From positions 1,178,001-1,242,000 of the forward strand of contig NOWV01000001.1 of the NCBI GenBank assembly GCA_003344405.1: DNA of 64,000 nt. Direction: 5' to 3'. Position 1 is the first letter of the stretch; each line of letters begins with the position of its first letter. The notes below the pieces were generated by a model. The model ran no database searches, was not told the DNA's origin, and was given only the letters and a program-made list of their open reading frames with translations. The position numbers and the translations under genes were made by a program. Shown one piece after another: positions 1,050 to 61,200 of the stretch. The stretch is from Trichoplax sp. H2 (Eukaryota).

Positions 1050-1850
1050 TTGCTTATGTACGCGTATACTGTACTATAGGATTAAAGATTAATAAAATTA
1101 GGACTTTTGCCTACCTTTTACGGTTAATGCCCTAATTCATGCAGTTATTAAGGAATCACAAGAGCTGAATGTAATTTCAATTGGAATAAAATCGTCGTCA
1201 ATTCTACCTATATATGACATATGACTATATACGCGTATACTGTACTATGGATCAAGGACATTTCAATTGAAATAAAATCGTCCATAATTTTACACATATA
1301 CACGTACAGTATACTGTACTATACTGTAGGATCAAGGACATTTGCCCATCTTTTACCGTTAATGCTGTATTTCATGCAATTATTAAGGAATGATCAGAGC
1401 TGAATGTCATTTAAACTGGAATATAATCGTATTCAGTTCTACATATATACGCGTATACTGCACTATGGATCAAGGACATTTCAATTGAAATAAAATCGTC
1501 CATAATTTTACACATATACGCGTACAGTATACTGTACTATGCTGTAGGATCAAGGACATTTGCCCGTCTTTTACCGTTAATGCTGTATTTCATGCAGTTA
1601 TTAAGGAATCACAAGAGCTGAATGTGATTTCAATTGGAATAAAATCGTCGTCAGTTCTACCTATATATGACATATGACTATATACGCGTATACTTTACTG
1701 TACTAATGGATCAAGGACATTTCAATTGAAATAAAATCGTCCATAATTTTACATACTGTACTATAGTGTAGGATCAAGGACATTTGCCCATCTTTTACCG
1801 TTAATGCTATATTTCCTGTCGTGGTGAAGGAGTCACGTGAGCAGAATGTG
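1050..1850. repeat. Higher-order tandem repeat, ~220-240 bp period, ~3.5 copies, built from two alternating subunits
   Basis: GGATCAAGGACATTT recurs at ~1249, 1329, 1467, 1547, 1707 and 1771, followed alternately by CAATTGAAATAAAATCGTCCATAATTTTACAC or GCCC(A/G)TCTTTTACCGTTAATGCT. The palindrome TATACGCGTATA occurs at 1228, 1446 and 1681. Confidence 0.9.
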
Positions 1851-3130: not shown

Positions 3131-3261
3131 TCGGTATTGAAAAACTTGACAAAATTTATCCTTCAAGTTGAATCTGCCTACTCCAATTCAAAAAAAAAAA
3201 CTCCACGCTTGACGATATCATCAAATATTTATATTGACTGGTGACCAACAAGGAAAGAAAA

Positions 3262-4728
3262 ATGGAAGACGAACTATTAGATGAAACACAACATGGAGGT
3301 AAAGTGGCGTTAGAATTTGTCCAGAAAAAGCGATTCTCATCCAAAATCTATGCGGCTATCGTGGTTTTTGTAATAGCAGTAATTTTAATAGCAGTCTTAA
3401 TCACTCTCTTTGCTACCGGTGTCATCGGCGGCAACAAGGCTCAAACTCCAACCAATGTAACCAATGTTACTATCAATGGTGTACCAGGAGAACGCTGGGA
3501 TTATGTCACCGTTCGACCTGGAGCGCATATGTTCTACATGTTTTATGGCTCAACAAAGACAACACCTTCACGCGATCAGTTGCCTTTAATCCTATGGTTG
3601 CAAGGTGGTCCGGGTGGATCGTCCACTGGATTTGGTAACTTTGCAGAAATTGGCCCGTTAGATATTAATCTGAAGCCAAGGAAATCTACTTGGCTATCGC
3701 GAGCCAACTTATTGTTTATAGATAATCCTGTAGGTACTGGATGGAGTTACGTTGATAATTCCTCCTTGTATACCACCGATGTGGATCAAATTGCTTCCGA
3801 TCTCGTCGTAGCTATCAAAGTTATATTCAATCAAATTCCTAAAATGAGAAAAGTACCATTCTATATTTTTGCTGAGTCGTATGGTGGAAAGATGACTGTA
3901 GCATTTGCAATCCAATTGAAAAAGGCTATTGCTTCCAATAGTATTCAATGCAATTTTCATGGAGTAGCCCTTGGAGATTCATGGATATCACCTTATGATT
4001 ATGTTAACACTTGGGGACCATACTTATTTGCTTTATCGTTATTGGATAAGAAGGAAGAAAAATCGGTCCAATATTACTCATCCTCTATTGCACAAGCAAT
4101 GAAAAATCAACAGTATCAAAATGCTACTAATTTGTGGCGATCAGCAGAACGATACATAGAATTGGTAACTGGGAATGTCAATTTTTACAATGTTTTATCG
4201 CATCGCTACCGTTTCTCCTCTAAAAAACGAGAGCAGTCGGAACAAGAAAAACTTGAAGCTTATTATCATTCTAGAGTTCGCCGATCATCGGGGCGCACAC
4301 TTTCTTCAGTCATGAATAGTGATGTCAGGAAAATGTTAGGAAGTATCATTCCTTCTAATGTTGTATGGGCTGGCCAAGCAAATCAAGTCTTTGCATATCA
4401 AGAAATTGATTTTATGAAGCCAGTGATTGATAGAGTAGATGAGTTGTTAAATATGAATGTTACTGTTGCCGTCTATAACGGCCAATTAGACGTTATATGC
4501 GATACCTTGGGTACGGAAGCTTGGATGGCAAAATTAAAATGGAAAAATTTGCAAAACTTCCAAAGTGCTAAGAAGCACATTATGAAATTAAGCAACAAAT
4601 CAGTTGCTGGCTTTTATAAAAAATTCAATAATCTGTCCTTATTTTGGATACTGAAAGCTGGTCATATGGTACCCATTGATGCACCTGACGCTGCACTACA
4701 AATGGTAGATACCATACTCACATTTTAA
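3262..4728 (+). CDS. SCPEP1: Serine carboxypeptidase (S10), SCPEP1/RISC-like, paralog A; intronless; N-terminal membrane anchor
   Basis: Motifs WLQGGPGGSS, FIDNPVGTGWSY, AESYGGK (catalytic Ser), NGQLDVIC (Asp) and AGHMVP (His). First ATG is at 3262. Hydrophobic segment IYAAIVVFVIAVILIAVLITLFATGVI. Confidence 0.92.
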   Translation: MEDELLDETQHGGKVALEFVQKKRFSSKIYAAIVVFVIAVILIAVLITLFATGVIGGNKAQTPTNVTNVTINGVPGERWDYVTVRPGAHMFYMFYGSTKTTPSRDQLPLILWLQGGPGGSSTGFGNFAEIGPLDINLKPRKSTWLSRANLLFIDNPVGTGWSYVDNSSLYTTDVDQIASDLVVAIKVIFNQIPKMRKVPFYIFAESYGGKMTVAFAIQLKKAIASNSIQCNFHGVALGDSWISPYDYVNTWGPYLFALSLLDKKEEKSVQYYSSSIAQAMKNQQYQNATNLWRSAERYIELVTGNVNFYNVLSHRYRFSSKKREQSEQEKLEAYYHSRVRRSSGRTLSSVMNSDVRKMLGSIIPSNVVWAGQANQVFAYQEIDFMKPVIDRVDELLNMNVTVAVYNGQLDVICDTLGTEAWMAKLKWKNLQNFQSAKKHIMKLSNKSVAGFYKKFNNLSLFWILKAGHMVPIDAPDAALQMVDTILTF

Positions 4729-10700: not shown

Positions 10701-11165
10701 TTAGAAAGACTAAAAATAAATTATAACGTTCCAGCAATATTTCAACTTCTTTACTAAATAGAAAAGTAAAGTACAGTATTTTTGATTCTTATTTTTAGAT
10801 TTTATTTTCTCCTAACTAATATCAAGTTGATTTCTAGTTTATAACTATCACATAGCTTATAACCATCCTTATCGATTAAGATTTGGATAAGGAAAATAGG
10901 AGTTAAATACCCTATACGTATCTATTCAATTTTGATCTATTTCGAATCTACTGCAACGGTATTGAAGTTCTAATAAACTGCGCACTTTCGGTTTGATCTA
11001 CTTTACAAATTTGATATAGTGATCATTTTCTGATTAAATTATTGACTAACGAAGAGATTTTCCTGTTTACTGATAACACGACAGATTAAAGATTACTTTA
11101 TTTTACAATAGAAATTGAAGATTTAAGTTTAAAATAGCGAAGATTGACAATCTTAAAATGTTAAC

Positions 11166-12539
11166 ATGCTGTTAAGACATCAAAACCCCGCTAAGGTTAT
11201 TTATAAGGCAGTCCAGTTTCTCCTTGCGGTAATTACTGTTGCAGCAAGCATACGTGCTGGGACTCCAAATATCGTGAAGGAAGGTGCGGACACATTGGTC
11301 AACAAAAATACTCATATTCCTACAGATTTACTTGGCAAGAAATGGTCTTATGTAACTGTTAGACCAGGTGTGCATATGTTTTGGTGGTACTATCCATGCA
11401 GAAACAGTTTCAAGACCAAAAGCCAACAAATACCATTAGTGATATGGTTACAAGGTGGGCCAGGAGAAGCTGCTAGTGGTATGGGAAATTTTTTAGAAAT
11501 TGGTCCGTATGATATGCATTGGCGTACTCGAAATACAACTTGGGCCAATAAAGTTCATTTATTATTTATTGATAGTCCTGTAGGGACAGGCTTTAGCTAC
11601 GCTGATAATTTATCGTTATATGCACGAGATGAGCACCAAATTGCTACCGATTTATTCTCAGTATTAAGAGATTTCTATAGCGCAGTACCAGATATGCATC
11701 AATTGCCCTTGTACATCTTTGGCCAGTCCTACGGTGGTAAAATGGCAGTTTCATTTGCATCTTTACTAACGCAAGCCATTGCTGATACTAGAATCCAATG
11801 TAATCTTACTGGAATCGGCCTATTCGATCCATTAATATCGCCTATAGATACTGTGACATCCTATATTGATTATTACAAAGCTTTCTCTTTAATGGATGAC
11901 AATGAAGCTAAATTGGCTCATGAATACGTTTATAAAATTACCCAATTAATCAATAAACAACAATTTGATCAAGCATCCACAACTTTAATACAATTGCTTA
12001 CGTATATCGTAGATGCTACTGGTCTAGTTGATGTCTATAATGTACTTCGACATGTTGATCATAATCCATTTACACCATCTCATCGTATCAACAATAGTAG
12101 TGAAGAAGTATTATTATCACAATTGATGAATGGCCCAATAAGGAACGCATTAGGCAACATACCTCAAAATTTAACCTGGTATCCTGGCAATGGTCAAGTC
12201 TATCAAATATTAGGAAACGACATCATGCAATCAGTTACCGATAAAATAGATGGCCTACTAAGTGATAATATAACAGTTGCTGTCTTTACTGGCCAATTTG
12301 ATGGTTTAACTAATACCATCGGCACACAAGCATGGATAGATAAACTAAAGTGGTCAGATTTGTATCAATATCAGCAAATTGATAAAGTACCAATATATGA
12401 TCAGGATAATATCATAGCATTTACTAAGAACTATAAGCAATTTTCCTATCATTGGATACTAAATGCTGGCCATTATGCAATTAGAGACGCTCCTGATACT
12501 ACATTTACACTTTTCCAAAAAGTTATTGGTGTTCTTTAA
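11166..12539 (+). CDS. Serine carboxypeptidase (S10), SCPEP1-like, paralog B; intronless; probable signal peptide
   Basis: Motifs WLQGGPG, FIDSPVGTGFSY, GQSYGGK, GQFDGL and NAGHY. Colinear with paralog A. Confidence 0.9.
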   Translation: MLLRHQNPAKVIYKAVQFLLAVITVAASIRAGTPNIVKEGADTLVNKNTHIPTDLLGKKWSYVTVRPGVHMFWWYYPCRNSFKTKSQQIPLVIWLQGGPGEAASGMGNFLEIGPYDMHWRTRNTTWANKVHLLFIDSPVGTGFSYADNLSLYARDEHQIATDLFSVLRDFYSAVPDMHQLPLYIFGQSYGGKMAVSFASLLTQAIADTRIQCNLTGIGLFDPLISPIDTVTSYIDYYKAFSLMDDNEAKLAHEYVYKITQLINKQQFDQASTTLIQLLTYIVDATGLVDVYNVLRHVDHNPFTPSHRINNSSEEVLLSQLMNGPIRNALGNIPQNLTWYPGNGQVYQILGNDIMQSVTDKIDGLLSDNITVAVFTGQFDGLTNTIGTQAWIDKLKWSDLYQYQQIDKVPIYDQDNIIAFTKNYKQFSYHWILNAGHYAIRDAPDTTFTLFQKVIGVL

Positions 12540-22840: not shown

Positions 22841-23616
22841 GGAGAAGATGAATTTTCCACCTTGGGAGACCACTCACGTATGTTGGTCATGGACAGGGGG
22901 TTATGGGTTGTGGTCGACTTATTACTCTACTGTCCCGAACAGCTCCTAGCTCAATACGCTTGCGTAGGATCATCATTAGCGTAGGCTGGAGGTTTCCCAT
23001 CGCTGTCTCAGTCGGTGCGGACACTGTACCATGTAACAGTGCAACAGCTGGTCTATTCCTGTAAGTTGTTGACTGTACTACGTTACTGTAGCCAGTTTGA
23101 TCACAGTACGTACAGTGTACAGTACAATCCAGTCCATCCCAATGATACTGTACCTTGTGCATAATAAGTTGTCACCTTCTCCCTTAAAAAGAGAATAAGC
23201 TCCTTGTTACTTTTTGGGGAGAAGGATGACAACTGCTATGTAAAGAGGATACCATTCTGATACTGTACTGTACAGTGTACAGTACTGTAGTCTCTGATGA
23301 AACGTACTGTACACTGTACAGTACTGTACTGTACTGTACTGTACTGTACTGTACACTGTACGCCCAATGTGTACAGTGTACAGTGTACAGTCTACAGTGA
23401 ATATGTACTTTGCACTGTATCCTTGTACTGTACTGTACTGTATAGCGTAGCGCGGTCGAAACGAGTCTAAACTACAGTACTGTACAGTACTATAGGCAAT
23501 GCAACATCAGCGATGTTGAGCTAGCTACTGCTATTTCCATCAAAATCCTTCATCTTTGAAGTGCGAGGTTGTCTGGCGATTGCTTGGCTTTTACAACAAG
23601 CTACAACAACTGTAAA
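22841..23616. promoter_or_regulatory. Bidirectional promoter DBT/CWC27 containing a dense (CTGTA)n/(TACAG)n array
   Basis: Divergent ATGs at 22840 and 23617. Pentamer arrays at ~23060-23160 and 23260-23495, e.g. gtactgtactgtactgtactgtactgtact. Confidence 0.8.
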
Positions 23617-28777: not shown

Positions 28778-30697
28778 TTACAATGACTTTTTGGATTCAT
28801 ACCATTCTGATACTTGTTTCTTTGACGCTGAGGAGATGGTTATAGATTGACTATCTTTAGGAAGGGGAGATTGCCATCCATAACGATTGTCCGGAATACT
28901 GGAACGTGAGATTGTATCAGGAACGAAAGTCTCGATACCTCGATGTAAGTCGAGGTATCTAAGGCTGGCAGAAGTGACTCCTATTAGAGTTCCACTCAAG
29001 ATCATAGCTGCTACACTGCGGACTAATACAAACAATAAAAGGATGCAATTATAACTTGTGTTTATTTATTGATCGGTTATATCTTTAGCAATTTCAATTT
29101 TATCTCTATCCCGTATGCACGTAATAATGACATACATTTAGCTCCAATGACTAATCCGGCACCAAATCCTCCAATAAGTTGATTGACAGAGTCGTCTTTT
29201 CCGCGAACATAGCTTGTATAGCAGCTAGTTACAGCAAACATGCTACCGGTAGCAGCTAGAGTAAGCAATAAAGACAAGTTATTGCATCGACTAACATCAA
29301 ATGTAAAAGATACATTACATGTGCTGTAACTATGATTACACACCAGTCTACACAACTGCATGTGGTGGTATCATATTGTTCACTTTGTATTCACTTACCA
29401 AAGGTAACTGTACAGGTAGCAAGTTTTCCTAGATTTATAATACCGGGGCGGTAGAGAGGCGGGTACGGTTGTGGTTTTTCGTAGGCTAACGCGACGTACA
29501 TTGCGCCATATAGTGTACCTTAAATCAGTACGATAAAAGTTAAAAGTTAATGTAGAATTGTGATGCAGTATCCACTACGGTAGTTACTACTTTAGTGTAT
29601 TTATGGATTGAATTTGTGTCAGCGTAGATTAGTCGTGAAAGGATGATTTCTTTCATCAATGGGCAAATTTAAAAAATTAGCATAACTGTTAACAGCACTA
29701 GAAAAGGCAAAGTCAAAATCTTGAGCTTTTCTCGCTTGGTAGCACTCCTTACGATCATTTCAGTAAAGGGTTTTAATCGTTACGTGAGTCTAATCAATTA
29801 TTGCTATCTATTTATGATTAATTATCAGCGATATTAGCATGAGAAATGAATTGATGATGTAGCTGAAAATTGGGAAAGGAAGAAAAGGCGTTTAGTCAGG
29901 TGCACTCGATTGGTACTATGCGAATAAAGACTACAGCTAAGGCTTTAGGAACAGGAAAGGTTAAGATGTTGTATTGTAGCAGCGAAATGATAACATTACG
30001 TATTCATTATAATCCATCCTTTGCTATCTTCGTATTCCATATGTTGATGAAAGGGTTGATAGGAAAATATGGCCAAAGTGAGCTAGCAAGATAGATGCAT
30101 ATTGTTTCGTTGTCTCAAGATCTTGGTACTATTTATAGTAAGAAGGATATTTTAAATCATATCCTTTCATGAACAGTGTAAGATAACTTCCTACTTTCCT
30201 AGTGCATTCTAGTCGACAGTACTCGATCTTTGTATGTTTATTAAGGTACGCGTATTTTTCGACAACTCTTTATCAACGCCTTGTTGGCTGTTGGTTTTGT
30301 CTCAAAGTTGACTGACTGCATTGTACGCTGTATAATGATTTTCGGCCAATTTGGCATGTTGGCTAATAGTCCAAGATACAATGATGGTATTCGACACACT
30401 ATTCTAGTAGAGGTATATTCTATCATTGGAGGGAAATGCTATATGCAGCATGTTGCAGGCGTTGAAATGACTTTACTCTTGCCGATCAAGTTGAGTAGCA
30501 GCATGGTTACACTGGTATCACTTACCGAATACACCGCCAGTAATGCTGTAACCTATCGCTTTATCTACACAATCTTCACCGTCTCCAGTATAGCGGATAT
30601 TCTTGTGAACAATTTGGTTTAGTATGCCGCTTTTCCTATTTTGGCGAAAAGAGGAAATATTGGTATTTAACTTTGGCGAGTCGTCGTTCTCCGCCAT
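28778..30697 (-). CDS. NDUFA11: NADH dehydrogenase 1 alpha subcomplex subunit 11 (Tim17/22-like fold), 4 exons
   Basis: Exons 30697-30526, 29518-29399, 29255-29136 and 29022-28778. Peptides GDGEDCVDKA and AATGSMFAVTSCYTSYVRGKDDSVNQLIGGFGAGLVIGAK resemble NDUFA11 (DGTDC; [25 protein letters not shown]). Confidence 0.78.
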
Positions 30698-30714
30698 CTT
30701 GACTGGTATAGCGT

Positions 30715-31450
30715 CTACTGTAGTTTTAACAGTACTGCCCGTTTTTGTACGGTCTACAGTCTGTAGTTGACTGTGACTGTACGGTACAGTCCGCCTGTCT
30801 TTCTGTACAGTACCGCGTACAGTACATGATACTGTGCACTGTAGGCATTTTACACGTCTGTACAGTACAGTGTACTGTACTGTACAGTACTATAAGATAC
30901 TCGAAGTAGTCAGTGCTTAGTTGAAAACATTAGAGCTTGAGTCTGTCTGTCTGAGACAAAAAAGACATCAGATTCAAGGTGGAAAACGTTAGAACTTGAG
31001 TCTGTCTGAGACAGAATGGCCATCAGATTCAAGATGGATATTTCAACACGTCTGTACAGTACAGTACTGTAGCCATAGAATACTGTACTGTAGATATTCG
31101 AAGTAGCAAGTGCCTTAAATAGAAAACATTAGAGGTTAAGTCTGTCTGTCTGAAACAGGATGGACATTAGACCCAAGGGGATATTTTGATACGTCTGTAC
31201 AGTGTACAGTACTGTACGGTTAGTAGAAAACATTAGAGCTTGGGTCTGTCTGTCTGAAACAGGATGGACATCAGATTCAAGGGGGTATTTTGACATACAG
31301 TACAGTACTGTATCTGTACAGTACTGTATACTGTACTGTACTGTACAAGACTGTAGGAAACAGTTGAGCTTAAGTCTGTCTGTCTGAAACAGTACAGTAT
31401 TTTGACACATCTGTACGGGTAGAATACTGTAGATATTCCAAGTAGCCAGT
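30715..31450. repeat. Composite tandem repeat plus TACAG/CTGTA arrays in the NDUFA11 / EFCAB14-like bidirectional promoter
   Basis: GAAAACATTAGAGCTTGAGTCTGTCTGTCTGA...CATCAGATTCAAGG-like unit at ~30923, 30982, 31122, 31227 and 31357, interleaved with TACAG/CTGTA runs. Confidence 0.88.
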
Positions 31451-31765
31451 ACTTCAAAGTTACCTTGTGCATGGTATGAATCAATAGCAGCAATGAATGT
31501 TCGAGTAGCTAGACAGAGAGAGTTAATCGCCCATTTTGACCATGTTGAACGACAGCTAGGTGTCCGTCCCATCCGTTTTTGTGAGAGCAGTCCCGGACTG
31601 GAGACTGTACTGTATGGTTTAGTATCCATGGTAGCATGTATCCGTATCAGGTAATGCCATCTTCAACACTTTACTATAGGAATGACCACTAATATACTGT
31701 GGCTAGAACATAATTACTGCCTCGACAGCACAGTATGAAGTAGAAGATCGACACTAGCTGTACAG

Positions 31766-37604: not shown

Positions 37605-40452
37605 CTACTTCATTTATAATTTACTTATGTAACAATTATTGCAACTTTGCAACCGAATTTTCCTTGTAATCATTAATTCAGTATACTTGTAGGATTACTA
37701 AAGAGTCGTAAAAAAGACAATTTAGTCATTGATATCCAGCTCATGTCGCTATTATTTACCACGATTGGAGCTATTAATATGTACATACACGAGTATATTT
37801 GCTGAAAGATAGTTACGCTAGTGTGAAAGAAACATCTACTATATTCGACAACTATGAAGCATCCGATGTATTTTAAGATTACAACATGAAACCTAATTAT
37901 TTCTATAGCTATTTTAAAGCTAATACAATTGTGGAGACCCTAGACCAACGGGAAAATTAGTTTAATTCTATCATTTAAAATTTCGTTTATTCGTTTTTAA
38001 CTTATAAAAGAGTTTTTAAAAAACAATTTTAATTACGGAAAACGTTAATGAGCATGAAAATAATAATTGTGCTATTTGAAAATTATGAATCATCTAAGAT
38101 ATTCACCTATAATGCAATGCGTATGGTTGTCTTATAATTTAATTACGAGCACTTCTGCAGCCATTATACAACTAACACAGTCGTGGAGATGTTTAGGGTA
38201 ATATTTAAATTACAGAGGGACGGATGCATGAGTTTGAAAATATAATACTATATTTGCATTACGTCAAAACTATGCAATTTCTACTACGATATATTGTATT
38301 TATAAAGCACGACATCAACTTAAACTGCATTCCTATAAGCATTAGTAGTTCAATGTCTGTAGGGATACTAAATTGAGAAAAGCATGTCATGCAATTATTT
38401 AACATTTAATATACAGTATATCGCTGTTTCCTTTAATCATGATTGACAATATTTAAATTACAGGATAGAGATGGGGATGCTAAAATAGCAACAAACCTAT
38501 CGATTAGTATCAGTGTTGACGACATCATTCGAATTTAGAGGGCAAAGGGCATTATTAAAAATTTAAATACTATCGTAATAGCCGTAGTATCTTCTAAAGC
38601 ACAAGAATGAAAAGATTTTTTAGTCAAGCATAATCTAAATCTCGTGAGAACATCTCTAAGGCTCGAGTCGTCATTATTCTGAATGAAATTTTATTCAATC
38701 TCGATTTACAATCAAATCTACAATAAAACAATTAGAATACTAAATTTTGCATCATCCTCTATTGTAGAGAGTCTAAAAATAAAGTTTTAATGTTTTATAG
38801 CTCAGTTATTGCTTCTTCTAGAGTACCGATCTCATGCTTTGTGAATAACTAGTCATGAATTAATACTTATACTTGATTATCCTGGCCTATCTCCTATACC
38901 GTATTACGATACCGCTTACCATCCTAGAATCAACGAAAAATCGACTTCGTTATGCAATATTTTATATATGGTACAATTTCATGTATAGCCACCGTTCACA
39001 GAATACAATTTGTACAGACACGAAGTTGAGGAAACAAATAGTGAATCATAAACCGTCTAAGCACATACACGTATCTCTCTTTAACCATGATCAATTTCTA
39101 AAAATGATTCAAGTATTAAAGAGTGAACATAATGTATGAAAATAATTAAGCACGTACAATTGTGCTGTATATTATTTCATAAATTATGTAATTTACCATG
39201 CAAGCGAGTACAGGATGTAAGAATTATATAATCATTGTCGTCTTTAAAATTTCTCTTCTTGTATACTGTAGCATAGTAAATATTAAGTAAGGAATACGGA
39301 TAATTGAATGATTAACCATCTAGGCGTACGTCTCTTTTTTGAATTATGGTAAATTTGGAAAATATTTAAATTTGGGCAGGATGAATATGTGAGAATGAAA
39401 ATATTTCAAATGCTTATTTATTTATTTATTTTATAAAGTGCATAATTTATCCTATCAAAACCTCTAAAAATTAAAAAGTTATTGCAATCTTTGACTTAGA
39501 TACACCCAAGGGCAATGACAGTACGTACGACCCACTAAATTTTCTCTTTTTCGATAAGCTACAGTAGCTTATTCTGGAGTAAATTACAAGATGGATAATT
39601 CACAATTCAATTTCTTTTGCTTCCATCTTGTCCATCTGTCATAGACGTCCGCTAACGAAGATATCACTATCCCATAGATGGTCCGTCATGTGATAATAGC
39701 ATGAGACTCATGCTTTATTTTACCCATATCCGAATCAGAACAAAGTTGATTATCCAGTACAAACCTAGTAACGCAAACTCTGACATGAGCAGTTTACCAA
39801 TCATTGCCTATACAAATTAGTCAAACAGCGATCTCTTGTTATTTTTAGGATTCCTTCGTCATCAGTGATGTCATTTAAAACTATTAAAACTATACTTAGC
39901 AATATAGTATTTTAAGAGTTAGTTACTGCAACATTGGCAGCCATTACTATTATAGCCGATTACTACGCCTCTCACGAGCATAATATAAAGAAAGAATCAA
40001 AGGCGGTTATTTCCATTAGTTAGCAAATGGTTGGATCAATTTGGGGGGAAGGAATGAATTGGATGTTTGATCTACCGGTAAAGGAAGATTAACGGAAGAG
40101 ATTTTAACGATCGTATACGTCTTGACTACAACTATTTCAATCTTGATCATTCATAATCAATCAACGTAGTAGAATTTGCAATTCTATGAACCAATTATTA
40201 ACGACAGTACAGAAGAAATGATATTGATAGAAGTGATTTGATTGCACTTGAACGAAAATTATCAAATTCCATTTTGTCATAATTTTAGCATACTTGAAGG
40301 CGTAATCATACTAATATACTAGAAAATCCATACAATCCACTTGGAGATTGTATTCTGTCATATTCAAAAGCGAAAGAATGTTGAACATAATAGAGAATAT
40401 AGGCAATTTAATCCGACTATCATCTATTAATTCAACTATCAACGATCCAGTT

Positions 40453-42153
40453 ATGGATAGCGATAAGCGTGCCGATGACGACTTACGTAAATATACTTGC
40501 TTACACGATCTAGAATATAACACCTCGGCGAATCATCAAGATAGTAATCTATCAGGCACTACATCTGACAAACAAATGTTAGATTTATATCTTCCAAAAG
40601 CCGCTGACCCATCAACAGTACCTATCGTCGTTTTTGTACATGGCGGTGGATGGAGACGAGGCGATAGAAAAGCATTTCGTTACTACTTTTCCAAATATGA
40701 TGTCAATTTATTAGCAGCAATGCTAATGGTGAGATGGGGCATTTATGAGAATGTGGGTAAAGCTTTCGCTCGTTCTGGCATAGCTTGCGCTGTTGTCTCT
40801 TACCGATTAAGTCGTTTGAAATTTCCCTATCTCATACTAGAATTACTAAGTTCTTTTCTAATGACTATGGCTATTATTTGCTGGCCAATTTTAGCCTATT
40901 CTTGGGTCATCGTACGCTACGTATTCGCTGCCACTCATTTTGCTATAACTCTAAACGATTGTCTAATGCTTTTATGGTCGACAACACCCTTGTTATTTGT
41001 AATTTTCTGTTTAAGCATGACAATTTATCCACCACCTAAGCGTACTATACTATTACTACCACTCTCGTTACTACTACTGTTAATTATAAATTATCTATCT
41101 CCATTCAAACCATATTTCCACTATTATATATTATACATAACCACGACAATAGCGATGTTGTCTTTATTGCAAACATTTCTAATGGATGATAAAGTTAATC
41201 ATCGTGACAGCAATATTGATGAAATCCGCCATCCTACGCATGTTAATGATGTCGCTTTAAGCGTCAAGTGGTTAACAGAATATGGTAAAAAGACGAAACT
41301 CTATAACCCTCAATCGTTATATCTATGCGGGCATTCTGCTGGTGGTCATATTATATCCTTACTATCCTTAGATCAATCTTACTTGAATAACGTAGGGGTC
41401 CAATCATCGAACGTGAAGGTAACTTAAAACTACACTTTAGTATCATGGAAATTGCTGCAAATTGCAACCTTAGATTGTTCACTAGTTTTAATGAACTTTC
41501 TATTACAAGCTTTAACTCTAGCTTTAATATTTTTAAAGATAAAATAACAGTAAAATCATCTATAAAGGTAATTTGATGAATTATAACTGTAGATTTAAGC
41601 TCTAGATTTAATAATCTCCACACTAAATACTCGTAGATTGGTACATTTCATACCTTAATTCGTAGCTATGCGTACAGTATTATAACTTAACAAAGTATTG
41701 ATAATGCAGTATGTAATTGCCGTTTAACCTGTCTTCATTTTTTTAATTATGATGTAGGCGGCAATAAGCATTTCTGGGGTATACGATCTTGGCTGGTTAT
41801 CGCGCTCCGTTCTTAAACAGTTTTATTTAAATCCAGCTTTTGGTAATGATCCAGCCACCTGGGTTAAAGCTTCACCTTATAATCATATTACTCGAGCTAA
41901 GAGTGAAATCACTCCACCTTTTCTAATAATTAACCCAAAACACGATTTTTTTCCTCTCCTCAATGATGCAAATCGATTTATGGCTAGCTTAAGAAAGAAT
42001 AACTTTAGGTGTAAACATTTTATCACTCCAAATAGAAATCATCTAACAATAATGAAAGAATTTGGATTGAAAGAACGGCCTTGCTGTGGTAATGTCGAAG
42101 AAATGTGTATTTTATTTATTTATCAATGTGAAGCAAACGCCATCGGTAACTAA
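40453..42153 (+). CDS. HSL-like alpha/beta hydrolase (kynurenine formamidase / isoprenylcysteine methylesterase-like) with an internal transmembrane insert; 2 exons
   Basis: LDLYLP, VVFVHGGGWRRGD, SYRLS, HVNDVA, LCGHSAGGH. Intron 41419-41757. Exon 2 encodes AAISISGVYDL...ASP...HDFF...NHLTI. The start could alternatively be the ATG at 40378. Confidence 0.85.
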
Positions 42154-47497: not shown

Positions 47498-48500
47498 CTA
47501 CAGTGTACAGTACTTTCGAATACAGTACTGTACAGTTGTACTGTACTTTACACTGTACGCTTGTGATCAGATGTGATAATAACTTACTGTACTGTATATT
47601 ATATCAGAATGCAGACAAGTTATGCAGCACTATTTTGGATAAAAATCCATTTAAAAGATGGATGTAGACACAAGAATACACCAAGAATTTTCGATATTGA
47701 ATGCTATGTATTGCTCCATGAGTGTTGTCATTTTGGAAAGCACTGATTGTCAGTGCCATGTAGTCTACAGAACATGATTACCATACAGTTTTACTTCGAA
47801 ATCGGGCCCCCCCCCATGACAAAGCTCACGGAACAGTAGATAGGGCTCAATCTTGTCATGAATTTCGATGAATGAATTTTGATCCCCAAATGATCAATCT
47901 TAATGCCTGCACAATCTTAAATCACAAATACTGAAGGTGAGAACTTGTACTTGCTCAAATACTGTAAATGAGTACGCTTTTCATCAACTAGTTAATTTAA
48001 TTACCGGAAACCATCAATGGCCGGGGCCGGGCAGCAGCCACCACTTCCGCTCGGTTACAGTACAGTACAGTACTGTAGAGTACAGTGTACAGTACAGATG
48101 AGTACTGGCAAGTACAGTACAGTACTGTAGAGTACAGTACAGTGTACAGTACAGTACTGTACAGATGAGTACTAGCAAGTACTGTACTGTACACTGTACA
48201 GTATACTGTAGTACCGTGTTCTCTCCAGACCCGTAATCCGGTAAAGAAAAACGCGCCAAAGGTTCAAATACTGTCCTAGAGGGATTTGGGAGGTTTTTCC
48301 TTTGCCTGTAAGGCTTGTAGTAAGTGTTTGAGTGCATGGTACAGCACGCTAGCAGTTCACTACACATTACCGTGTAACGACGTGACACCCGTAGTCGACT
48401 GACATCAACAGTGGTGTGTAGCAAAATAAGACTGTCAACCTGTAGTCTAGTGACTTTAAAGGTTTGAAGCACCTTGGGAAAAGGCCAATCCAAAGGGTCA
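47498..48500. promoter_or_regulatory. ORC1/SASS6 bidirectional promoter with TACAG arrays and ETS-, E2F-, CHR- and CCAAT-like motifs
   Basis: Arrays at 47498-47600 and 48055-48212; ACTTCCG at 48043; CGCGCCAAA at 48252-48260; TTCAAA at 48263; TTTGAA at 48463; GGCCAATC at 48483. Confidence 0.7.
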
Positions 48501-53735: not shown

Positions 53736-55893
53736 ATATTGAACATTCTTCCGCAAATAAGTGTGATATTTATCATTTCAAGCCTGTGCTATACTAAGTC
53801 AATAGATATCTTTATTATTACTCGCCAAACCACCGAAGTATTTGCATTCCTGCGCACACATGTATTCTAGGAGCGAGTTTATGACTACTAAATATTATTC
53901 TTTCTGCGTTATCTTTGCATAGTATACTAAATGGTAGCATTTAATTACAACTTGAGTAGCTGTACCGATCTATCCTATATTTTAAATTGGACTCATAAGC
54001 GGTTAGCTTGTGAAGATTGTATCGATGTTAGATTTTAACGCTACATTTTTTACTTTAAACTTTTCGTACCACCTATCGATTTTTACCTTGGCATTTTATA
54101 CTAGACAGGAGTAATGTACATTGTACAGGATATATCACAGCATTTCATACTGTATATATATTATGCGAGTAGATTAATTTCAGCGCATATCATTTCTGAT
54201 TAATTCCTTATTAAATTTTAATATAGTTACGTTACAAGTAAGATTTGCTTACTGAAAGATAGAATTATAATGGTTATGCATTTGCCTTCTTCAAAATTTT
54301 GACATGCTAATTGTTCGAAAGGTGCCTACGGGATTTAAAAGCTTTTATTAGAAATAGCAGAAGGCTATTGTACAAAAATAATAATTGAAGTGAAGTAAGA
54401 AATCTATCCTACTTTTACGCGTAATTAACATAATGCAATAAAATTGATTAGAAAAAGACATCTTTGTTGAGTTACTGCGTAACAAGTGTTACACTTCAAG
54501 AATGTAAAAGCAAATGTAATGAATTGAAATCGTGGCCTTTAGGCTACCTTATTAAAGTCTAGAATACAATTTAAACAAATTTATAACGGACAATAACTGC
54601 CCGGACATTAAAATTAAACAAAGAAAGATAAAATTTTATTAAGTTGTACGTGTATGAATCAATTAAATAGAAATATTACTTTAGTAAATAATTTGATATT
54701 ACAATAATTAATCTTAAAAGATGCCATCTATTTGAACTGTGCGGTATGGCATGATTTGCAATTACCGAAGCTACATAAAAAGTTAAGGAACATTATACAA
54801 TTTAGAAATCTATCCTTTAGCTTATAAATTGCTAACTTGCACATTAAACATAAAATTACAAATTTTAATACATTCTTAAATTATATCAGAAAGAATTACC
54901 AATGTACGCTACCGAAGATAAAAAATGACAGTAATTAAAAATATTACCAGCACTAGCGTAATTTTTTAAATTAAGAAATTATACAAATAATGAAATCTGT
55001 AAATGTTAATTTAAAAGTGCAGTCCATTTTATGATTTCTAATGAGGCTCTTGCAATTAGTATCTTATATAAAATTATTGACTTAATCAGCAAGGATCTTA
55101 GTTAAAACTTTAGGCATGAAGTAGACTGTTGATTATTTTCATTCTTAGCAGTAGATCGATCATCAGCGCAAATTGAAAAGATGTATCTGAAAATGATATC
55201 AAGACTTGATAACAATTAAACATGTATTTCACTGATGGTAAGAAAATTAACGATTTACGTTGTAATTCGTGTCCTACAATTGCTTGTTATACAGATAATA
55301 GTGCGAGCTCTTTAGTTTCGACAATTATAATAGAAAAGCTAAGAGATGAGTAATGCTCTTCTAAGTTTGTAAAGCTTATAGTGACGAAATTTCTATCGTG
55401 ACTATAGCAAAATATCGAAACTTCTCACTGGTAACCAGTTTTACCAGGACTTGTCAAAGATGATTAAGTCTAAAGGAAATTTATAGTATCTCTATTAGCT
55501 TCAATTATTAGTATTGAAGAATGTGAAATTAATACAGTTTATAATTTCATCGCGTATAACTTAGTAAATAGCATTTTATATTACAGTGTATACACGATTG
55601 TGCATCGATATTAACTAAATTAGATTTCTAAGTTATAAAATTTGACAAAGTCAGCGCATTTGCGAAGCACTCATAACGAAATCATGGAGGTTATAGTTAC
55701 TAGCATACCAAGTGTAACGTAGCGATATCACTAGTATGATTACTATATGAATGGGTGAAGTGCTGATTAAAATTAATCAGAAATGATAAGTAATTTAGTC
55801 GATCATTTCTTCTCGCTTGCAAAATTAAAATTTTAATGCATCATATGTAAATTGAATACAACGTCCTGAGTTGGCTTATCCGTATTTGAATAT

Positions 55894-58268
55894 CTAATGG
55901 CAACCACAAGCATCTACGACTATGTCAGGATATTCCTTAATGATAATCTTATTCCCTTCGACATAAAGAAAACTTAGTGGCGATAATTGAGTTGGCGCAC
56001 ATTGAGACGCTTTTACACCTTGGACTTTAAGGTCGTGCAGAATAGCCATCACAATCGCATGATTTGTAGCATTTAAATGAGGTCCAAGAGGATATGAGCA
56101 AGTACCGCTGCAGTAGTATGACTCGAAAACCTTCGGAGCAAAAATAATGTCATTATTAAAAACTTGATCAACCTTAATTTCCATAGAACGGCGCCGGCAT
56201 GACCTTTTCTTCTTCTGTTTGCTTTTTTTCTTACTGGACTTTTGCTCGGTAGATCGCTTAGTGCGCTCGTGCTTTTCATCTGAATCATCATCATCATCCA
56301 TATTGTTTTCGTCGTTATCACTCGCTATTGATCTTGCCATTCTCGATAAAACCCCTCGATGATGTTCAATATTGGGCACTTCTTGCTCATGGTGCGGTCG
56401 ATAGTCGTTAACATTTCCTCTATCACTATAAACGACCAGTAAAGGTCTAAAGTTACCTGTTCTGCGTGTCTTAAATAACTGACGGCTAACATCATTAGAT
56501 TTTACCAGCAGTAAATCCGGTGTTTTGATAATCACACGAAGACCCAAATTGCTGGATTCATCATTAATCCAGGCACGAACAGTAGTCAATACATCGAATG
56601 TAGTTTGTGTTTGATTACCATTTGTGTATATCAAATGTTTAGCTACAACTTGTGTTGATCTGTTGTGGAATATTTGATGAATTTCAACGTAATAAAAGAG
56701 GTGGAGCTTTAGCAATTTCTCAGCATTGAGTGGCCTTCTTGTTAAAACAAGTTCCGCAGCGACAACATTTTCTAGATTTGAAGTTTTATCATTGGTAATA
56801 TCGGACATATTGAATGTAAATCGACCAACTCCTCGAGACCAAGAATGACCTAAAGATACGCCAAGCTTATGAGTATGCGAATGGTTGAAGAGGCAAAACA
56901 TCCGCTACATTAATTAATTAGCAATAAACACTGATATTCAGTCAGTCGCTAATGACTATAATTTCGATGAGTACAACTTTTTAAAACCTTCTAAAGCCAC
57001 ACGATTGAAAACCTTATTTATCTTGTCGAGTTTAGTTCTACAGTCTGAGCGTAGATACTAGAGATTATACTGTATTACAGTATTGAACACGAATTTGTTG
57101 AAATGTTTAGTCAACGAAGTGTCATCAGAAGTCTTTAATTTGTCATACTTTTTACACATTCTAAGAAATAGACAGCATGAGGCTCTATATGTTAGTACAG
57201 TAGTAATGCTATTTAGCACTGTAAGGTTTTCGTAATGATTGAATAAGTATATGTTAACAATCAAAGACCTTGCTGTTCTTGAATACATGCATGATAATTT
57301 ATTTTAGATAGCTTGAAGAAGCCAGATTTCGCTAAACGTACGCTCATTGTCTTACACTATACCGTGTATAGCTAGATACTAGTGCTAGATTTAGCGGTAG
57401 TTCAATCTTCGCTGGATTATTTTATACCGTAAAGTAGAAATTTTTAAGCTGCGCTAGTCCTTTTTATTATACTGTACTATACCAACGTGAAAGCCACGAT
57501 CGAGAAATAAAAGCTTATTATAGCTGATAGTATTTAAAGTAGCGTCAATACTGTTCGATTTTTTGTCACAAGCACTTAAATAAAAAGGAGCGATCTAGAC
57601 AGTCAAATTGATGACAATATTGACTGACCATTTACAAACTAAATCATGACAATTTTTATGTACTAATGGTAGCACGTCAGCGTAGGAACGATTGGGAGCA
57701 TGTTAGAGAATACTAATGCATGACTATCAACTGTTTATGGTTCAAAGTGTAGAATAACCTTCATCTCGACTGTCAGTCTGTTGTCAATTCGTGGTAATCT
57801 CTAATAACAAAATTAAACTACAGAGCCAATACTAGTTTGACGATCATAAAAATTGATTCTGTTTTGTATCATTACGCCATTATGTGCAATTAAGTTAGAA
57901 AATTTACCTCCATCTGCTGTTCGAATGCCTTGTATAAGGTCACACTGAAATTTTTTATCTTCATGTTTGATTAAGAAATTGCTAGCACCACCTTTAATTC
58001 TTCCGGTTTTCTTGTCAGCGATTGAATTATATAAATCCCACATATATCTGGGTGCTTGGACGTTACTCTTTTGCGTAGATGAGACTGATTTCTTCGATCT
58101 GAGTAATTGGATGACTCTTTGTCTCGCCATTGCAGACTCTTCATCTTCATCACTTTCGTGATCTACATCATCCAATCTTGACAGTGCAATTTCTGCTGAT
58201 GAAGCAGTGATGTAGTAAATAGACTGGGCGAGTGTCGCCAAGAGAATAATTATAAACCAGGATTTCAT
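55894..58268 (-). CDS. BMP/Dpp-like TGF-beta family ligand precursor, 2 exons (58268-57908 and 56849-55894)
   Basis: Signal peptide; prodomain APRYMWDLY, FNMSDI, AAELVL, FDVLTTVRAW, RPLLVVYS; furin-type sites RMAR and RTKR; mature domain C...APKVFESYYCSGTC...NATNHAIV...CAPTQLSPLSFLY...VVDACGCH. Confidence 0.92.
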
Positions 58269-61200
58269 TTCGGATTATTCTATTTTGACCACAAATCAAT
58301 TTCAAGTTTATCGTTCACAAAATTTTGTTAATCTTCACCACGTCGACAGAAATATCGATTAATGGTACGACAATGTCGATAAGATAGCGTTGGTTAAACT
58401 CTTAGGTATTTTTGTCTATTCCACTTTTTACTCGTCAGGTTAAACCTGTGCAAGTGAACTATACAGGGTAAGGGAGAAAATCGGGTAACAACTAGTCAGA
58501 ATTGCTCGTACAACACAATACGTATGATCTATTTAAAAGAAGCGAATTAAAATGACGTTGCGCTAATTCATAAAGATCAACTAACCCAATTTCGTACAAA
58601 ACATAAAAGCTAAGGCAAGATTGAGTTTTCCGGTTATTTTTCTGGATAGCAAGTCTAAGGCGACATTTGTGAATTCCTTCAGCGATTTACACCTTGAACC
58701 ACATCTAGCAGAATCTAGCCATTTGCATGAAAAAAAGGTTATCAAAAAGATTAGGAGAAAAAAATCAATTCAACATAAAGATAGCTATTGGTTGACATGG
58801 TAGTGAAAAGAAGATCGATCAAATATAGCGTACTAATAGCATTTAAGACATGGAATTAGTCTTTACACTATAAATTACCCTATTTTAGTTGATCAATAGG
58901 AGTCGTTAACGGCGATAACTTCTGCTTCTATTTTTTGTATGTGTTGTTTTTCAAATTCAAGTTTAACGTATTAATTATATAAGTTGCTGTAGGCAAATAA
59001 TGACTATTCAATAAACAGCGTAGTATTGTCGTTGTTGGAATTGATTGAGTTTGTAGGCCAAGATTTTTTTTCTGTTAATACGAATTGCGTCAAGTAATTT
59101 TATCAACAGGTAGTTCAAAAATACCGATCTTTGCAAGGATGCAAAATGGCCAATGATGGGAAGACGTTGGGACACCGGTGTTGTAATAGCAATAGTAATC
59201 GCCAACTTGAGCACAGTAGGATATGTAATTTTTATTGCTGTTGAAAGATGTAATAATGTACGTTAATTAGTTGACAATTCCAGCATTGACTATAAGCTAT
59301 AATATTGCTTGTTTCTTTTCTCTATCAATCTAATATTGAATAGATGGAGTAATAATATGGCGATTATTTTATTATTTTCCAAGTCAATGGCACCCCACGA
59401 CGCTGAAATGTTGCCACAATCGGTTGGCTGCTATCCAGTGCGTAAGAAAGAATTTGCAATCAAGTTGATCACCACACCTGGGATGAATAAGCAATTGCTA
59501 GTAATGATGGATTGGTTAATAATATTGAGTAGAAATGAATCCCTTGAAGATATTACATGATCTCCTTGCAATAAGAGTGAGAGAAAAAAAAAATTGCTGC
59601 TTGAAGGCCTGTTGCAATGACAACCGTACTACGTAACAGCGATTTGAAAAGACTCTTCTCTACCGTTGCAATGGCTCGTTGTTGTGTCAATTAGCCTTGA
59701 AAAACGCTTTCAATCCTATCATTCAATACTACTATTCGATCACTCTATCTGATCTGGTCTCTACAACTTGGATGAAGATTAATTTTCCACTTTCTTTAAC
59801 TTGAAGGAATGATTTAGCGGCTGAAAATGGAAGAAGAACTTGCAATAGTGTGGTGTTAACTGAGGGCCGAGTTGGAAAAATGGATCGATGTTTTGAGTAG
59901 GTAACGCTTACTATAGTATAGGATGGTCATGATGGGTATTTGAGTTAGCCTACTGGAAACAGACATTTGGTAATAGAAGTAGGTATGGAAAAGTCAATGC
60001 AACCAAGTGTCGATATGAGAGTAAGAATCCATCTAACTGAGCATACGCTCCACCTCACTAGTGTAATCTCTGTATTGCTACAACATGATTGTGCACTCAA
60101 TGACGTTTTACTGACAGCATGGTAAACGCGACCACCACTAGGGTCGCGCGTTGATCCAAGATCCAATCGACTATACTACTACTACTACCCATTCACTAGT
60201 TTATGGACGGAAGAAAGCGTTCAAACTTGTTATCACACTACATGGTACAGTATGAAATGGTCATCAAAATGGATGACATTACTAATACACCAGAATACAC
60301 GATCGTTGGGTCTTGCAACATAGTGACGGGAAGTAAAAAATGGCGGAAATACTTTCAACCCGCCTAGACACAAGGCCAACGATTAAATAGCAAAAAGAAA
60401 TGATAGTCAATCCATATCGAGTTGTGCCATTGCAATTTCTGGTCTGATTGGAATAAAGAAACTTGATAGCTTGGGTTATGTACTTGCATATCTATATATA
60501 TACACGATAGCGCAAAAGCTGATGCAAGTGCAATCGCTGCAGATGAAATGAGTAAGAGGGATCGAGCAATAATAACTGCAATATCCCCTTGCATCATTGA
60601 TCAATCAATATCTTCAAACGATGGTAGATTGAGCAGAAACTATGGAAGGATCGATTGAACCGATAAAGGACTAACTTTCTAACCCTACTTAGATATCCCC
60701 TCCCCCCAATGCCTCTGCCGTATACTAGCTATTATTGACGATTAACAGCGATTGGGTTACGTCGCTGTTTACCCGATTTGCACAGGATACGCGTACATTC
60801 CAAGAATTAGTTCATTCTGATTGATTACTTTATGCAGTATTGAAAATATTGTCATTACTCTACTGTATCATGATGACTGTTAGCATTCAAAATTACTTCA
60901 TAGCAACATAATTTACTATCTTGCGAATCACGAAATCATGCAACTCTTAATCACTGGTATATTCTTTACGAATCTCAACTTCTATTTTGGATATGTTGTC
61001 AATAGAGAAAGCATTGATTGCACGATGATGGCTAAAAATAGTGTAGGTAACTCACGACATGTAATTAATATCATTGCATGCAGTAGAGACCAAGCTATTG
61101 AACTCGTTCGATTGACTTTTAAAATAGTATGTAACGATTCCGTTGCAATAGCGAATTAGCGATAATAGAATAAGTTCGCCAGCTAAATTCTTATACTCTA

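What the first reader, a model, noticed from the sequence alone, without database searches (positions are those of the whole stretch)
55894..56205. BMP-like ligand lacks the interchain cysteine and the conserved tryptophans
Seen: the mature domain has six Cys; the usual CC reads QC (KASQCAPTQL), and the GW-x-x-W-I-I-A-P motif reads VFNNDIIFAP. Known: the missing Cys forms the dimer disulfide and is absent in GDF3, GDF9, BMP15 and Lefty; the Trp residues line the type I receptor pocket. Inference: a non-covalent dimer, monomer or heterodimer partner with altered type I binding, potentially an antagonist that arose independently in an early animal lineage.
Basis: partly seen in the sequence, partly recalled or inferred. 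Interest (0 to 1): 0.7.

Follow-up and report, generated by a model that had tools for sequence, protein, structure and literature searches.

The report
Trichoplax BMP ligand without dimer cysteine
A real, expressed growth-factor gene of the simple animal Trichoplax encodes a BMP-type signal that has lost both the cysteine that normally links its two halves and the two tryptophans that normally grip the type I receptor, so it probably works in an unusual way.

Summary
The window is Trichoplax adhaerens. On the minus strand lies a two-exon TGF-beta/BMP gene of 438 aa. RNA contigs from 3 runs of 3 studies confirm the intron. The mature domain has six Cys. Gln replaces the interchain Cys, and Asn and Ile replace the two finger-1 Trp. 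The codons read the same in 4 of 4 runs laid. A 68%-identical relative, taken to be a placozoan orthologue, keeps all three losses. Among 177 relatives, only that orthologue lacks both Trp, and 6 lack the Cys. The protein departs at 18 of 49 conserved columns, all at positions shared with the orthologue and concentrated in finger 1. The fold is predicted confidently and matches BMPs. A canonical homodimer passes its controls, 0.42 against 0.00, though possibly from memory. BMP subfamily placement is unresolved. The functional reading is inference: a non-covalent dimer with a kept type II core and an altered type I mode, as in AMH. An antagonist or heterodimer role is not excluded. I rate it a new variant of a known kind, of moderate interest.

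The parts
57908..58268 (-). Exon 1 (coding part). It runs from the ATG at 58268 and encodes a hydrophobic signal-peptide-like N-terminus and the N-terminal prodomain. It ends in phase 1.
   Evidence: An in-frame stop lies 9 nt upstream of the ATG. The ORF is listed. TGFb_propeptide scores E 0.0068, 16.5 bits, below the cut-off. The exon end is fixed by the RNA joint. The signal peptide was judged by eye; no predictor was run.
56850..57907 (-). Intron of 1058 nt, GT..AG on the minus strand.
   Evidence: Contigs of runs X9 (RNA on record), X7 and X8 (RNA guessed), from 3 studies, join 56847 to 57906. The tool notes that the cut fits equally well 2 places further right. Run X1 covers the intron, so it is DNA or unspliced RNA.
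55894..56849 (-). Exon 2 (coding part). It encodes the rest of the prodomain, the furin site, the mature domain and the stop codon (55894-55896).
   Evidence: The ORF is. Pfam gives TGFb_propeptide at 6.9e-09 and TGF_beta at 6.6e-25. The joined CDS is 1317 nt, giving 438 aa and one stop.
56254..56265 (-). RTKR furin-type cleavage site (aa 316-319). Cleavage here would release a 119-aa mature ligand with a Lys-rich N-terminal tail.
   Evidence: It is also present in orthologue P0001. Cleavage itself is inferred, not shown.
55897..56208 (-). Cystine-knot (TGF_beta) domain of 104 aa with six Cys.
   Evidence: The AF2 pLDDT blocks here are 83-95. Foldseek gives TM-scores of 0.85-0.89 (target-normalised) and rmsd 1.8-2.1 A to BMP2, GDF5, BMP6 and BMP10 chains.
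56002..56004 (-). Gln codon (CAA, aa 403) in the place of the interchain Cys.
   Evidence: The column is C in 171 of 177 relatives. No variant is listed here in the 4 of 4 runs laid. Orthologue P0001 also has Q.
56146..56157 (-). Codons for N-N-D-I (aa 352-355) where relatives have W-x-D-W. Both finger-1 Trp are replaced, by Asn352 and Ile355.
   Evidence: Each Trp column is W in 175 of 177 relatives. Orthologue P0001 has D and V at these places. No variant is listed here in the reads.
57942..57944 (-). Lone Cys109 in the prodomain. It is the only Cys outside the knot.
   Evidence: Its role is unknown. The orthologue's exon-1 part is not available for comparison.

Best explanation
This is an intact, transcribed and spliced Trichoplax adhaerens gene for a secreted BMP-class pro-protein.

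Shown: the gene has a signal-peptide-like N-terminus, a TGF-beta propeptide, an RTKR site and a six-Cys cystine-knot domain that is predicted to fold like BMP2, GDF5 or BMP6. It lacks the interchain Cys and both finger-1 Trp. Its one close relative, taken to be a placozoan orthologue, lacks them too.

Inferred: after furin cleavage the 119-aa ligand forms the usual butterfly dimer, held without a covalent bond. It keeps the Ala-Pro core of the type II (knuckle) epitope and a nearly unchanged pre-helix loop and wrist helix. It has no Trp pair for the knob-in-hole contact with the type I receptor's Phe. It would therefore bind the placozoan type II receptor normally and recruit a type I receptor weakly or in another way, much as AMH does. 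Without a disulfide it could also exchange subunits with other ligands outside the cell, as the BMP15/GDF9 pair does.

I read it as a signalling or modulating ligand with remodelled type I recognition. The remodelling came as a burst of change before the two placozoan lineages split and has been conserved since.
For: Organism and gene:
- A neighbouring ORF is 100% identical to TRIADDRAFT_58150 of T. adhaerens.
- The spliced form stands in contigs of 3 runs from 3 studies, one of them RNA on record.

The losses are rare and shared:
- Only the orthologue among 177 relatives lacks both Trp, and 6 of 177 lack the Cys.
- The orthologue P0001 is 68% identical overall. Identity is 80 of 104 (77%) in the knot domain against 124 of 195 (64%) in the prodomain part.
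- The query departs at 18 of 49 columns that are at least 80% conserved. The other 176 relatives have a median of 2 and a 95th percentile of 10. All 18 positions also depart in the orthologue.

Where the changes lie:
- Departures fall at 9 of 15 conserved columns in finger 1, against 2 of 13 in the pre-helix and helix (Fisher p 0.024).
- Ala24 and Pro25 of the I/V-A-P type II motif are kept, A in 169 and P in 177 of 177 relatives. The preceding residue is Phe.

Variation and structure:
- Strain differences in the CDS are 4 synonymous and 3 non-synonymous, none in the mature domain.
- AF2 mean pLDDT is 80, with the mature domain at 83-95. Foldseek gives TM-scores of 0.85-0.89 (target-normalised) to BMP-class chains.
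- The homodimer scores ipSAE 0.42 against a best control of 0.00. The runs agree in at least 95% of contacts and pLDDT is 81-82. The interface is helix 261-273 against the fingers and includes Gln282.

Literature, passages seen:
- AMH lacks the same two Trp yet signals through ALK2/3/6. [quoted passage not shown]
- BMP15 and GDF9 lack the Cys and can form heterodimers outside the cell (PMC6953019).
Against: No receptor, ligand partner or signalling readout could be tested. No Trichoplax genome or receptor sequences were available.

The homodimer pass may reflect memory of solved BMP dimers, as the tool's own caveat says. The handed-in alignment was not used.

The mapping of individual residues to the wrist and knuckle epitopes rests on two literature passages and on recalled BMP2 numbering, not on a modelled complex.

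The residue before Ala-Pro is Phe, which occurs in only 3 of 177 relatives. That could also disturb type II binding.

Only the 317-aa exon-2 product was folded, so the first 121 residues were not modelled.

The RNA evidence is from contigs, which show presence and splicing but not level or cell type.
Confidence: 0.45

Rival explanations
1. It is a receptor-competing antagonist. The ligand binds the single placozoan type II receptor through its kept knuckle core but cannot recruit a type I receptor. It would then damp signalling by the other four ligands, as I recall for BMP3 or inhibin.
For: Both Trp of the knob-in-hole pocket are gone, while Ala-Pro of the type II motif is kept. Other nearly invariant residues, which I recall as lining the same pocket, have changed too: Phe13 to Val, Met96 to Ile and Gln54 to Met. 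Trichoplax is reported to have one type II and three type I receptors for five ligands, so competition would be effective (passages of PMC2657120 and PMC3169577).
Against: AMH lacks the same Trp and is an agonist. The pre-helix loop and wrist helix, the other half of the type I site, are almost unchanged, with 2 of 13 conserved columns altered. That argues for continued selection on type I contact. No binding data exist.
Confidence: 0.25
2. It is an obligate or preferred heterodimer partner. The subunit pairs non-covalently with another Trichoplax BMP ligand, and the mixed dimer is the active species, as with BMP15:GDF9.
For: It has no interchain Cys, and ligands without it can form heterodimers outside the cell (PMC6953019). 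The dimer-forming helix is conserved. The language-model feature search places it nearest a cluster named GDF9, at 0.96. That is a lead only, with no alignment behind it.
Against: The homodimer is predicted with confidence above its controls. No other Trichoplax ligand was available to test. Co-expression is unknown.
Confidence: 0.2
3. It is a decaying or functionless paralogue on its way to becoming a pseudogene.
For: It sits on a very long stem, 1.67 changes per column. It departs at 18 of 49 conserved columns.
Against: The frame is open over 438 codons and the transcript is spliced. All 18 departures are at positions shared with a 68%-identical orthologue, and the knot domain is more conserved than the prodomain. 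No non-synonymous strain variant lies in the mature domain. The fold is predicted with confidence.
Confidence: 0.05
4. It is a sequencing or assembly artefact at the Cys and Trp codons.
For: None found.
Against: Contigs of 4 of 4 runs laid, from 4 studies, show no difference at these codons. The orthologue has the same losses.
Confidence: 0.01

Closest known systems
BMP2/4, BMP5-8 and GDF5-7 ligands (BMP class of the TGF-beta family)
   Same: It has a signal peptide, propeptide, furin site and C-terminal cystine knot. The best sequence matches among solved structures are a BMP2/6 chimera (101.5 bits), BMP6 (92.9), BMP2 (92.5), BMP7 (89.9) and GDF5 (88.7). The predicted fold superposes at 1.8-2.1 A. 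The pre-helix loop and wrist helix are conserved.
   Different: It has no interchain Cys and no finger-1 Trp pair, and it departs at 18 of 49 conserved columns. It joins none of the three classes with support. Holding it with the GDF5 class or the BMP5-8 class is not rejected, with p-AU 0.20 and 0.203.
GDF9 and BMP15 (six-Cys ligands)
   Same: They lack the interchain Cys and form non-covalent dimers that can exchange subunits (PMC6953019 passage). A cluster named GDF9 is the nearest by language-model features, at 0.96. That is a lead only.
   Different: As I recall, they keep both Trp and are vertebrate genes. No named GDF9 or BMP15 sequence was in hand, so kinship was not tested. The loss here is shared only with the close relative taken to be a placozoan orthologue.
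AMH (anti-Mullerian hormone)
   Same: In the passages seen, AMH is the only human family member said to lack the two conserved finger-1/2 Trp. The authors expect altered, low-affinity type I binding (PMC8256043).
   Different: As I recall, AMH keeps the interchain Cys. It has its own dedicated type II receptor and has Ile where BMP-class ligands have Ala, whereas the Trichoplax ligand keeps the Ala. AMH is not among the 60 PDB sequences listed of the 63 matched, so it is a parallel and not kin.
Ctenophore MlTgf4 and MlBmp3
   Same: These are non-bilaterian ligands reported to lack the fourth conserved Cys (PMC3169577 passage).
   Different: The state of their Trp is not given in the passages seen. 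Their sequences were not in hand, and they come from a different phylum.

Membership tests
TGF-beta superfamily ligand | C-terminal TGF_beta cystine-knot domain with the six knot Cys | tested here: met
   PF00019 scores E 6.6e-25, 88.3 bits against a cut-off of 27. Six Cys stand in the invariant columns.
TGF-beta superfamily ligand | N-terminal signal peptide, propeptide and a basic RXXR cleavage site before the mature domain | tested here: met
   PF00688 scores 6.9e-09, 36.1 bits against a cut-off of 25.8. RTKR is at aa 316-319 and is kept in the orthologue. The signal peptide was judged by eye only.
TGF-beta superfamily ligand | Seventh Cys forming the interchain disulfide (present in most members but not defining) | tested here: not met
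   Gln stands at that column, where 171 of 177 relatives have Cys.
BMP/activin-type ligands with knob-in-hole type I binding | Two conserved Trp on finger 1/2 that clasp the type I receptor's Phe | tested here: not met
   Asn and Ile stand at these columns, which are W in 175 of 177 relatives each. The role of the Trp is given in PMC8256043.
BMP/activin-type ligands binding ActRII/BMPR2-type receptors | Hydrophobic Ile/Val-Ala-Pro patch on the knuckle | tested here: inconclusive
   Ala and Pro are kept. The first residue is Phe, found in 3 of 177 relatives against V in 91 and I in 73. The motif's role is given. No receptor was modelled.
BMP2/4 subfamily | Groups with BMP2/4 sequences in a supported clade | tested here: inconclusive
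   The pair lies on the BMP2/4-like side of the tree, but no starred branch holds it beyond the pair itself.
GDF5-7 subfamily | Groups with GDF5-class sequences | tested here: inconclusive
   It is not placed with the GDF5-class group c5 in the free tree. Holding them together costs 10.9 lnL, with p-AU 0.20, so it is not rejected. Group c5 was named from its PDB best hit, GDF5 at 227 bits.
BMP5-8 subfamily | Groups with BMP5-8/60A-class sequences | tested here: inconclusive
   It is not placed there in the free tree. Holding them together costs 12.2 lnL, with p-AU 0.203.
GDF9/BMP15 subfamily | Orthology to the vertebrate oocyte factors | not testable with these tools
There is only a feature-based lead.
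Dimeric TGF-beta ligand | Forms the helix-into-fingers butterfly dimer | tested here: inconclusive
   The prediction scores 0.42 against a best control of 0.00. That mark was reached by 7 of 16 animal proteins solved as pairs of one chain and by 0 of 30 eukaryote proteins solved as single chains. The pass may come from memory of solved BMP dimers.

The most novel reading that the evidence does not exclude
Placozoa independently invented a non-covalent BMP-class subunit without the Trp pocket. It occupies the animal's single type II receptor without normal type I recruitment. That would make it an endogenous ligand-level antagonist or mixed-dimer modulator, comparable in logic to inhibin, BMP3 or Lefty, in an animal with only four receptors and five ligands.
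Probability: 0.25. Interest if true: 0.7.

Novelty: new variant of a known kind. Interest (0 to 1): 0.5.

Why it matters
The two finger-1 Trp are described as present in every human family member except AMH, and as the clasp for the type I receptor (PMC8256043). The interchain Cys is missing in only a few specialised ligands.

A BMP-class ligand that lacks both, conserved between two placozoan lineages, is a natural experiment on how much of the canonical ligand architecture signalling needs. It comes from an animal reported to have one type II and three type I receptors.

It offers a small, tractable system of five ligands and four receptors. In that system one can test whether ligand-level antagonism, low-affinity type I modes or extracellular heterodimer exchange arose early in animal evolution.

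The public gene model appears to be only an 84-aa fragment. The full 438-aa model given here is useful in its own right.

Tried and rejected
- **Whole-genome search for the other Trichoplax ligands and receptors.** No genome is held for this window. Receptor or heteromer modelling was therefore impossible.
- **Naming the unnamed relatives.** I named tree groups only by their best solved-structure hit.
- **Linking the gene to the published names Bmp2/4 (Ta57057), Gdf5 (Ta9164), Bmp5/8 (Ta9129) or Bmp3 (Ta58663) of PMC6501881.** A search for these identifiers found 0 papers. The held supplement gives only a synteny table and figure titles. The 84-aa identical fragment has its name masked. The table uses Trichoplax scaffold 7 up to position 5.71 Mb, and the window's scaffold is 5.88 Mb. 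That is a weak hint only.
- **Sister relation to the three Ser-for-Cys ligands P0190, P0236 and P0285.** It appears at 99/67 and falls to 74/0 once the Cys and Trp columns are removed. I rejected it as evidence of shared loss.
- **P0233, the nearest row in the FastTree run, which also has Gln at the Cys column.** The tool flagged that join as long branches meeting, and it is not recovered in the careful tree.
- **A second TGF_beta domain in the window.** A six-frame search hit 1 of 1381 ORF pieces, the gene itself.
- **Earlier notes of this scan.** Nothing was found by place, sequence or words.
- **Literature on this trait in placozoans.** Nothing was found. Supplementary trees and alignments of PMC6501881 are pictures and could not be read. 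bioRxiv supplements are closed. They may show the sequence.

Full report
**What is there.** The window has about 33% G+C. An intronless ORF at 3262-4725 is 100% identical to TRIADDRAFT_58150 of Trichoplax adhaerens, on a contig of 5,881,857 bases. The window is therefore placozoan.

The finding lies at the 3' end of a minus-strand ORF, 55894-56904. That ORF carries TGF_beta (E 6.6e-25) and TGFb_propeptide (E 6.9e-09). An upstream ORF, 57813-58274, begins with a hydrophobic signal-like peptide and has a weak propeptide match (E 0.0068, below the cut-off).

By eye I placed a phase-1 donor and an acceptor. Contigs of three runs from three studies (X9, RNA on record; X7 and X8, guessed RNA) join exactly there. 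They skip 1058 bases with GT..AG on the minus strand. A fourth run, X1, covers the intron.

The resulting model is:
- ATG at 58268
- exon 1, 58268-57908
- exon 2, 56849-55894
- a CDS of 1317 nt, giving 438 aa
- RTKR at aa 316-319
- a 119-aa mature part with a Lys-rich tail
- six Cys in the knot and one lone Cys at residue 109 of the prodomain

An in-frame stop lies 9 nt before the ATG. No second TGF_beta domain lies in the window: 1 hit among 1381 six-frame pieces.

**The observation.** Alignments to BMP2/BMP6, BMP6 and BMP2 chains show Gln where the first Cys of the CC pair stands, and F-N-N-D-I where G-W-x-D-W stands.

I collected 181 relatives (31, 150). Four did not cover domain positions 6-101 and were left out, leaving 177. 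In those 177:
- The Cys column is C in 171, S in 4 and Q in 2.
- The two Trp columns are W in 175 each.
- The only relative lacking both Trp is P0001.
- The six relatives lacking the Cys are P0001, P0233 (Q), and P0190, P0236, P0285 and P0264 (S).

P0001 is a 322-aa protein known only from a public read assembly. It is 68% identical over the whole 317-aa query. It reads Q-C and V-F-D-N-D-V-I-F-A-P. I take it to be the orthologue in another placozoan. The neighbouring carboxypeptidase has a similar 74% partner from the same kind of source.

In the reads, none of the four runs is listed with a difference at the Gln, Asn or Ile codons, and all four cover them. The trait is real and heritable.

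**How unusual it is.** Among 1.84 billion representatives, the best hit after the gene's own 84-aa fragment is 43% identical. Only 2 hits reach E 1e-30.

At the 49 domain columns that are at least 80% conserved in the 176 non-placozoan relatives, the query departs at 18. The others have a median of 2, a 95th percentile of 10 and a maximum of 19. All 18 positions also depart in P0001.

The departures fall at 9 of 15 conserved columns in finger 1, 2 of 13 in the pre-helix loop and helix, and 7 of 21 in finger 2. Fisher's test for finger 1 against the helix gives p 0.024.

The two placozoan proteins are 77% identical in the knot domain and 64% in the prodomain part. Differences between runs within the CDS are 4 synonymous and 3 non-synonymous, none in the mature domain. 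This is the pattern of an old burst of change followed by constraint, not of decay.

**Structure.** AlphaFold2 on the 317-aa exon-2 product used an alignment of 139 rows. These were 138 of the 177 relatives plus the query, chosen by length 250-520, with P0153 and the near-duplicates P0013-P0027 left out. It gives a mean pLDDT of 80, with 83-95 over the mature domain and the usual finger-helix-finger order.

Foldseek superposes the mature part on BMP2, GDF5, BMP6 and BMP10 chains at target-normalised TM-scores of 0.85-0.89 and rmsd 1.8-2.1 A.

Two copies of residues 210-317 were predicted to form a symmetric dimer:
- ipSAE was 0.41, 0.42 and 0.42, against 0.00 in three controls.
- The runs agree in at least 95% of contacts, and pLDDT is 81-82.
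- The mark was reached by 21 of 30 microbial proteins solved as pairs of one chain and 0 of 23 solved as single chains.
- Among eukaryotes it was reached by 17 of 29 pairs (animals 7 of 16) and 0 of 30 single chains.
- The interface is helix 261-273 against the fingers and includes Gln282.

BMP dimers have been solved, so this pass may come from memory.

**Family placement.** Among solved structures the query is about equally close to BMP6, BMP2, BMP7 and GDF5.

I clustered a FastTree of all 178 rows. I then built a careful tree of 52 rows chosen from each cluster, leaving out the long rows P0030 and P0031 and 124 others. Groups were named by their best solved hit:
- P0172 is BMP2 class.
- P0220 is GDF5 class.
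- P0007 is named 60A by its source.
- P0190 is nearest BMP7.

The placozoan pair sits on a stem of 1.67 changes per column. No starred branch holds it beyond the pair itself. It is drawn beside the three Ser-for-Cys ligands at 99/67. With the Cys and Trp columns removed, that drops to 74/0.

Holding the pair with the GDF5 class or with the BMP5-8 class is not rejected, with p-AU 0.20 and 0.203. On the tree, the Cys-less state of 6 of 52 rows needs at least 2 changes. The subfamily is therefore open. This agrees with the statement in PMC6501881 that no tree resolved all Trichoplax Bmp ligands (passages).

**What is known.** From passages seen:
- Trichoplax is credited with five ligands (four BMP-like), three type I receptors and one type II receptor (PMC3169577; PMC2657120).
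- PMC6501881 names Bmp2/4, Gdf5, Bmp5/8 and Bmp3 genes.
- BMP15 and GDF9 lack the interchain Cys and can form heterodimers outside the cell (PMC6953019).
- AMH lacks two conserved Trp that are 'present in all other ligands'. The type I receptor's Phe inserts between these Trp. [quoted passage not shown]
- The ctenophore ligands MlTgf4 and MlBmp3 lack the fourth Cys.

I found no paper that describes the loss of the Cys or the Trp in a placozoan ligand. The library is partial. The supplementary trees of PMC6501881 are pictures that I could not read.

The only public model that I could see is an 84-aa fragment.

**Mechanism.**

Shown:
- The gene is intact, spliced and conserved.
- It is of BMP class by sequence and by predicted fold.
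- It has neither the disulfide Cys nor the Trp pair.
- Ala-Pro of the type II patch and the wrist helix are kept.

Inferred:
- It forms a non-covalent dimer.
- It binds the type II receptor roughly as usual.
- It contacts the type I receptor without the knob-in-hole clasp, so weakly or differently, as proposed for AMH.
- It may be free to exchange subunits.

I give this reading 0.45. A pure type II-competing antagonist gets 0.25, a heterodimer-only subunit 0.2, decay 0.05 and artefact 0.01. These overlap in part. None could be tested here, because no Trichoplax receptor or sister ligand was available.

**Verdict.** This is a new variant of a known kind. It is moderately surprising to a specialist, because it combines two rare losses in one conserved BMP-class ligand of a very simple animal.

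Noticed in passing
window 3238-4728 (+) and 11157-12539 (+): Two long, apparently intronless serine carboxypeptidase (Peptidase_S10) ORFs lie 6.4 kb apart on the same strand. The first is 100% identical to TRIADDRAFT_58150 and about 50% identical to retinoid-inducible serine carboxypeptidases. They look like tandem paralogues.
   Followed up: partly
window 40315-41427 (+) and 41758-42153 (+): Two ORFs with alpha/beta-hydrolase matches: BD-FAE at 7.9e-17 and Abhydrolase_3 in the first, Peptidase_S9 at 4.7e-05 in the second. They look like two exons of one esterase-like gene.
   Followed up: partly
window 48056-48210, 23261-23361, and ORFs at 1703-2315, 30518-30889, 31129-31662: Arrays of a TACAG/TACTG-type short repeat translate as runs of C-T-V-Q-Y in several frames and recur across the window. 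They may be a dispersed microsatellite-bearing element.
   Followed up: no
window 57942-57944 (-): A single unpaired Cys (residue 109) stands in the prodomain of a ligand that has no interchain Cys in its mature part. Whether it links prodomains or another protein is unknown. The orthologue's exon-1 part was not available.
   Followed up: no
window 55700-58400; RNA contigs of runs X7, X8, X9: The spliced contigs are 6.8-7.0 kb long. They extend about 4.2 kb beyond 55700 and about 1.2 kb beyond 58400. Either the UTRs are long or neighbouring transcripts are merged in the assemblies.
   Followed up: no
proteins P0233, P0190, P0236, P0285, P0264 (relatives, not in the window): Five unnamed BMP-class proteins from other sources also lack the interchain Cys (Q or S) while keeping both Trp. 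Loss of this Cys recurs in the BMP class. Their organisms could not be named.
   Followed up: partly
window 1226-1667: A 218-bp unit is repeated twice in tandem at 93% identity.
   Followed up: no
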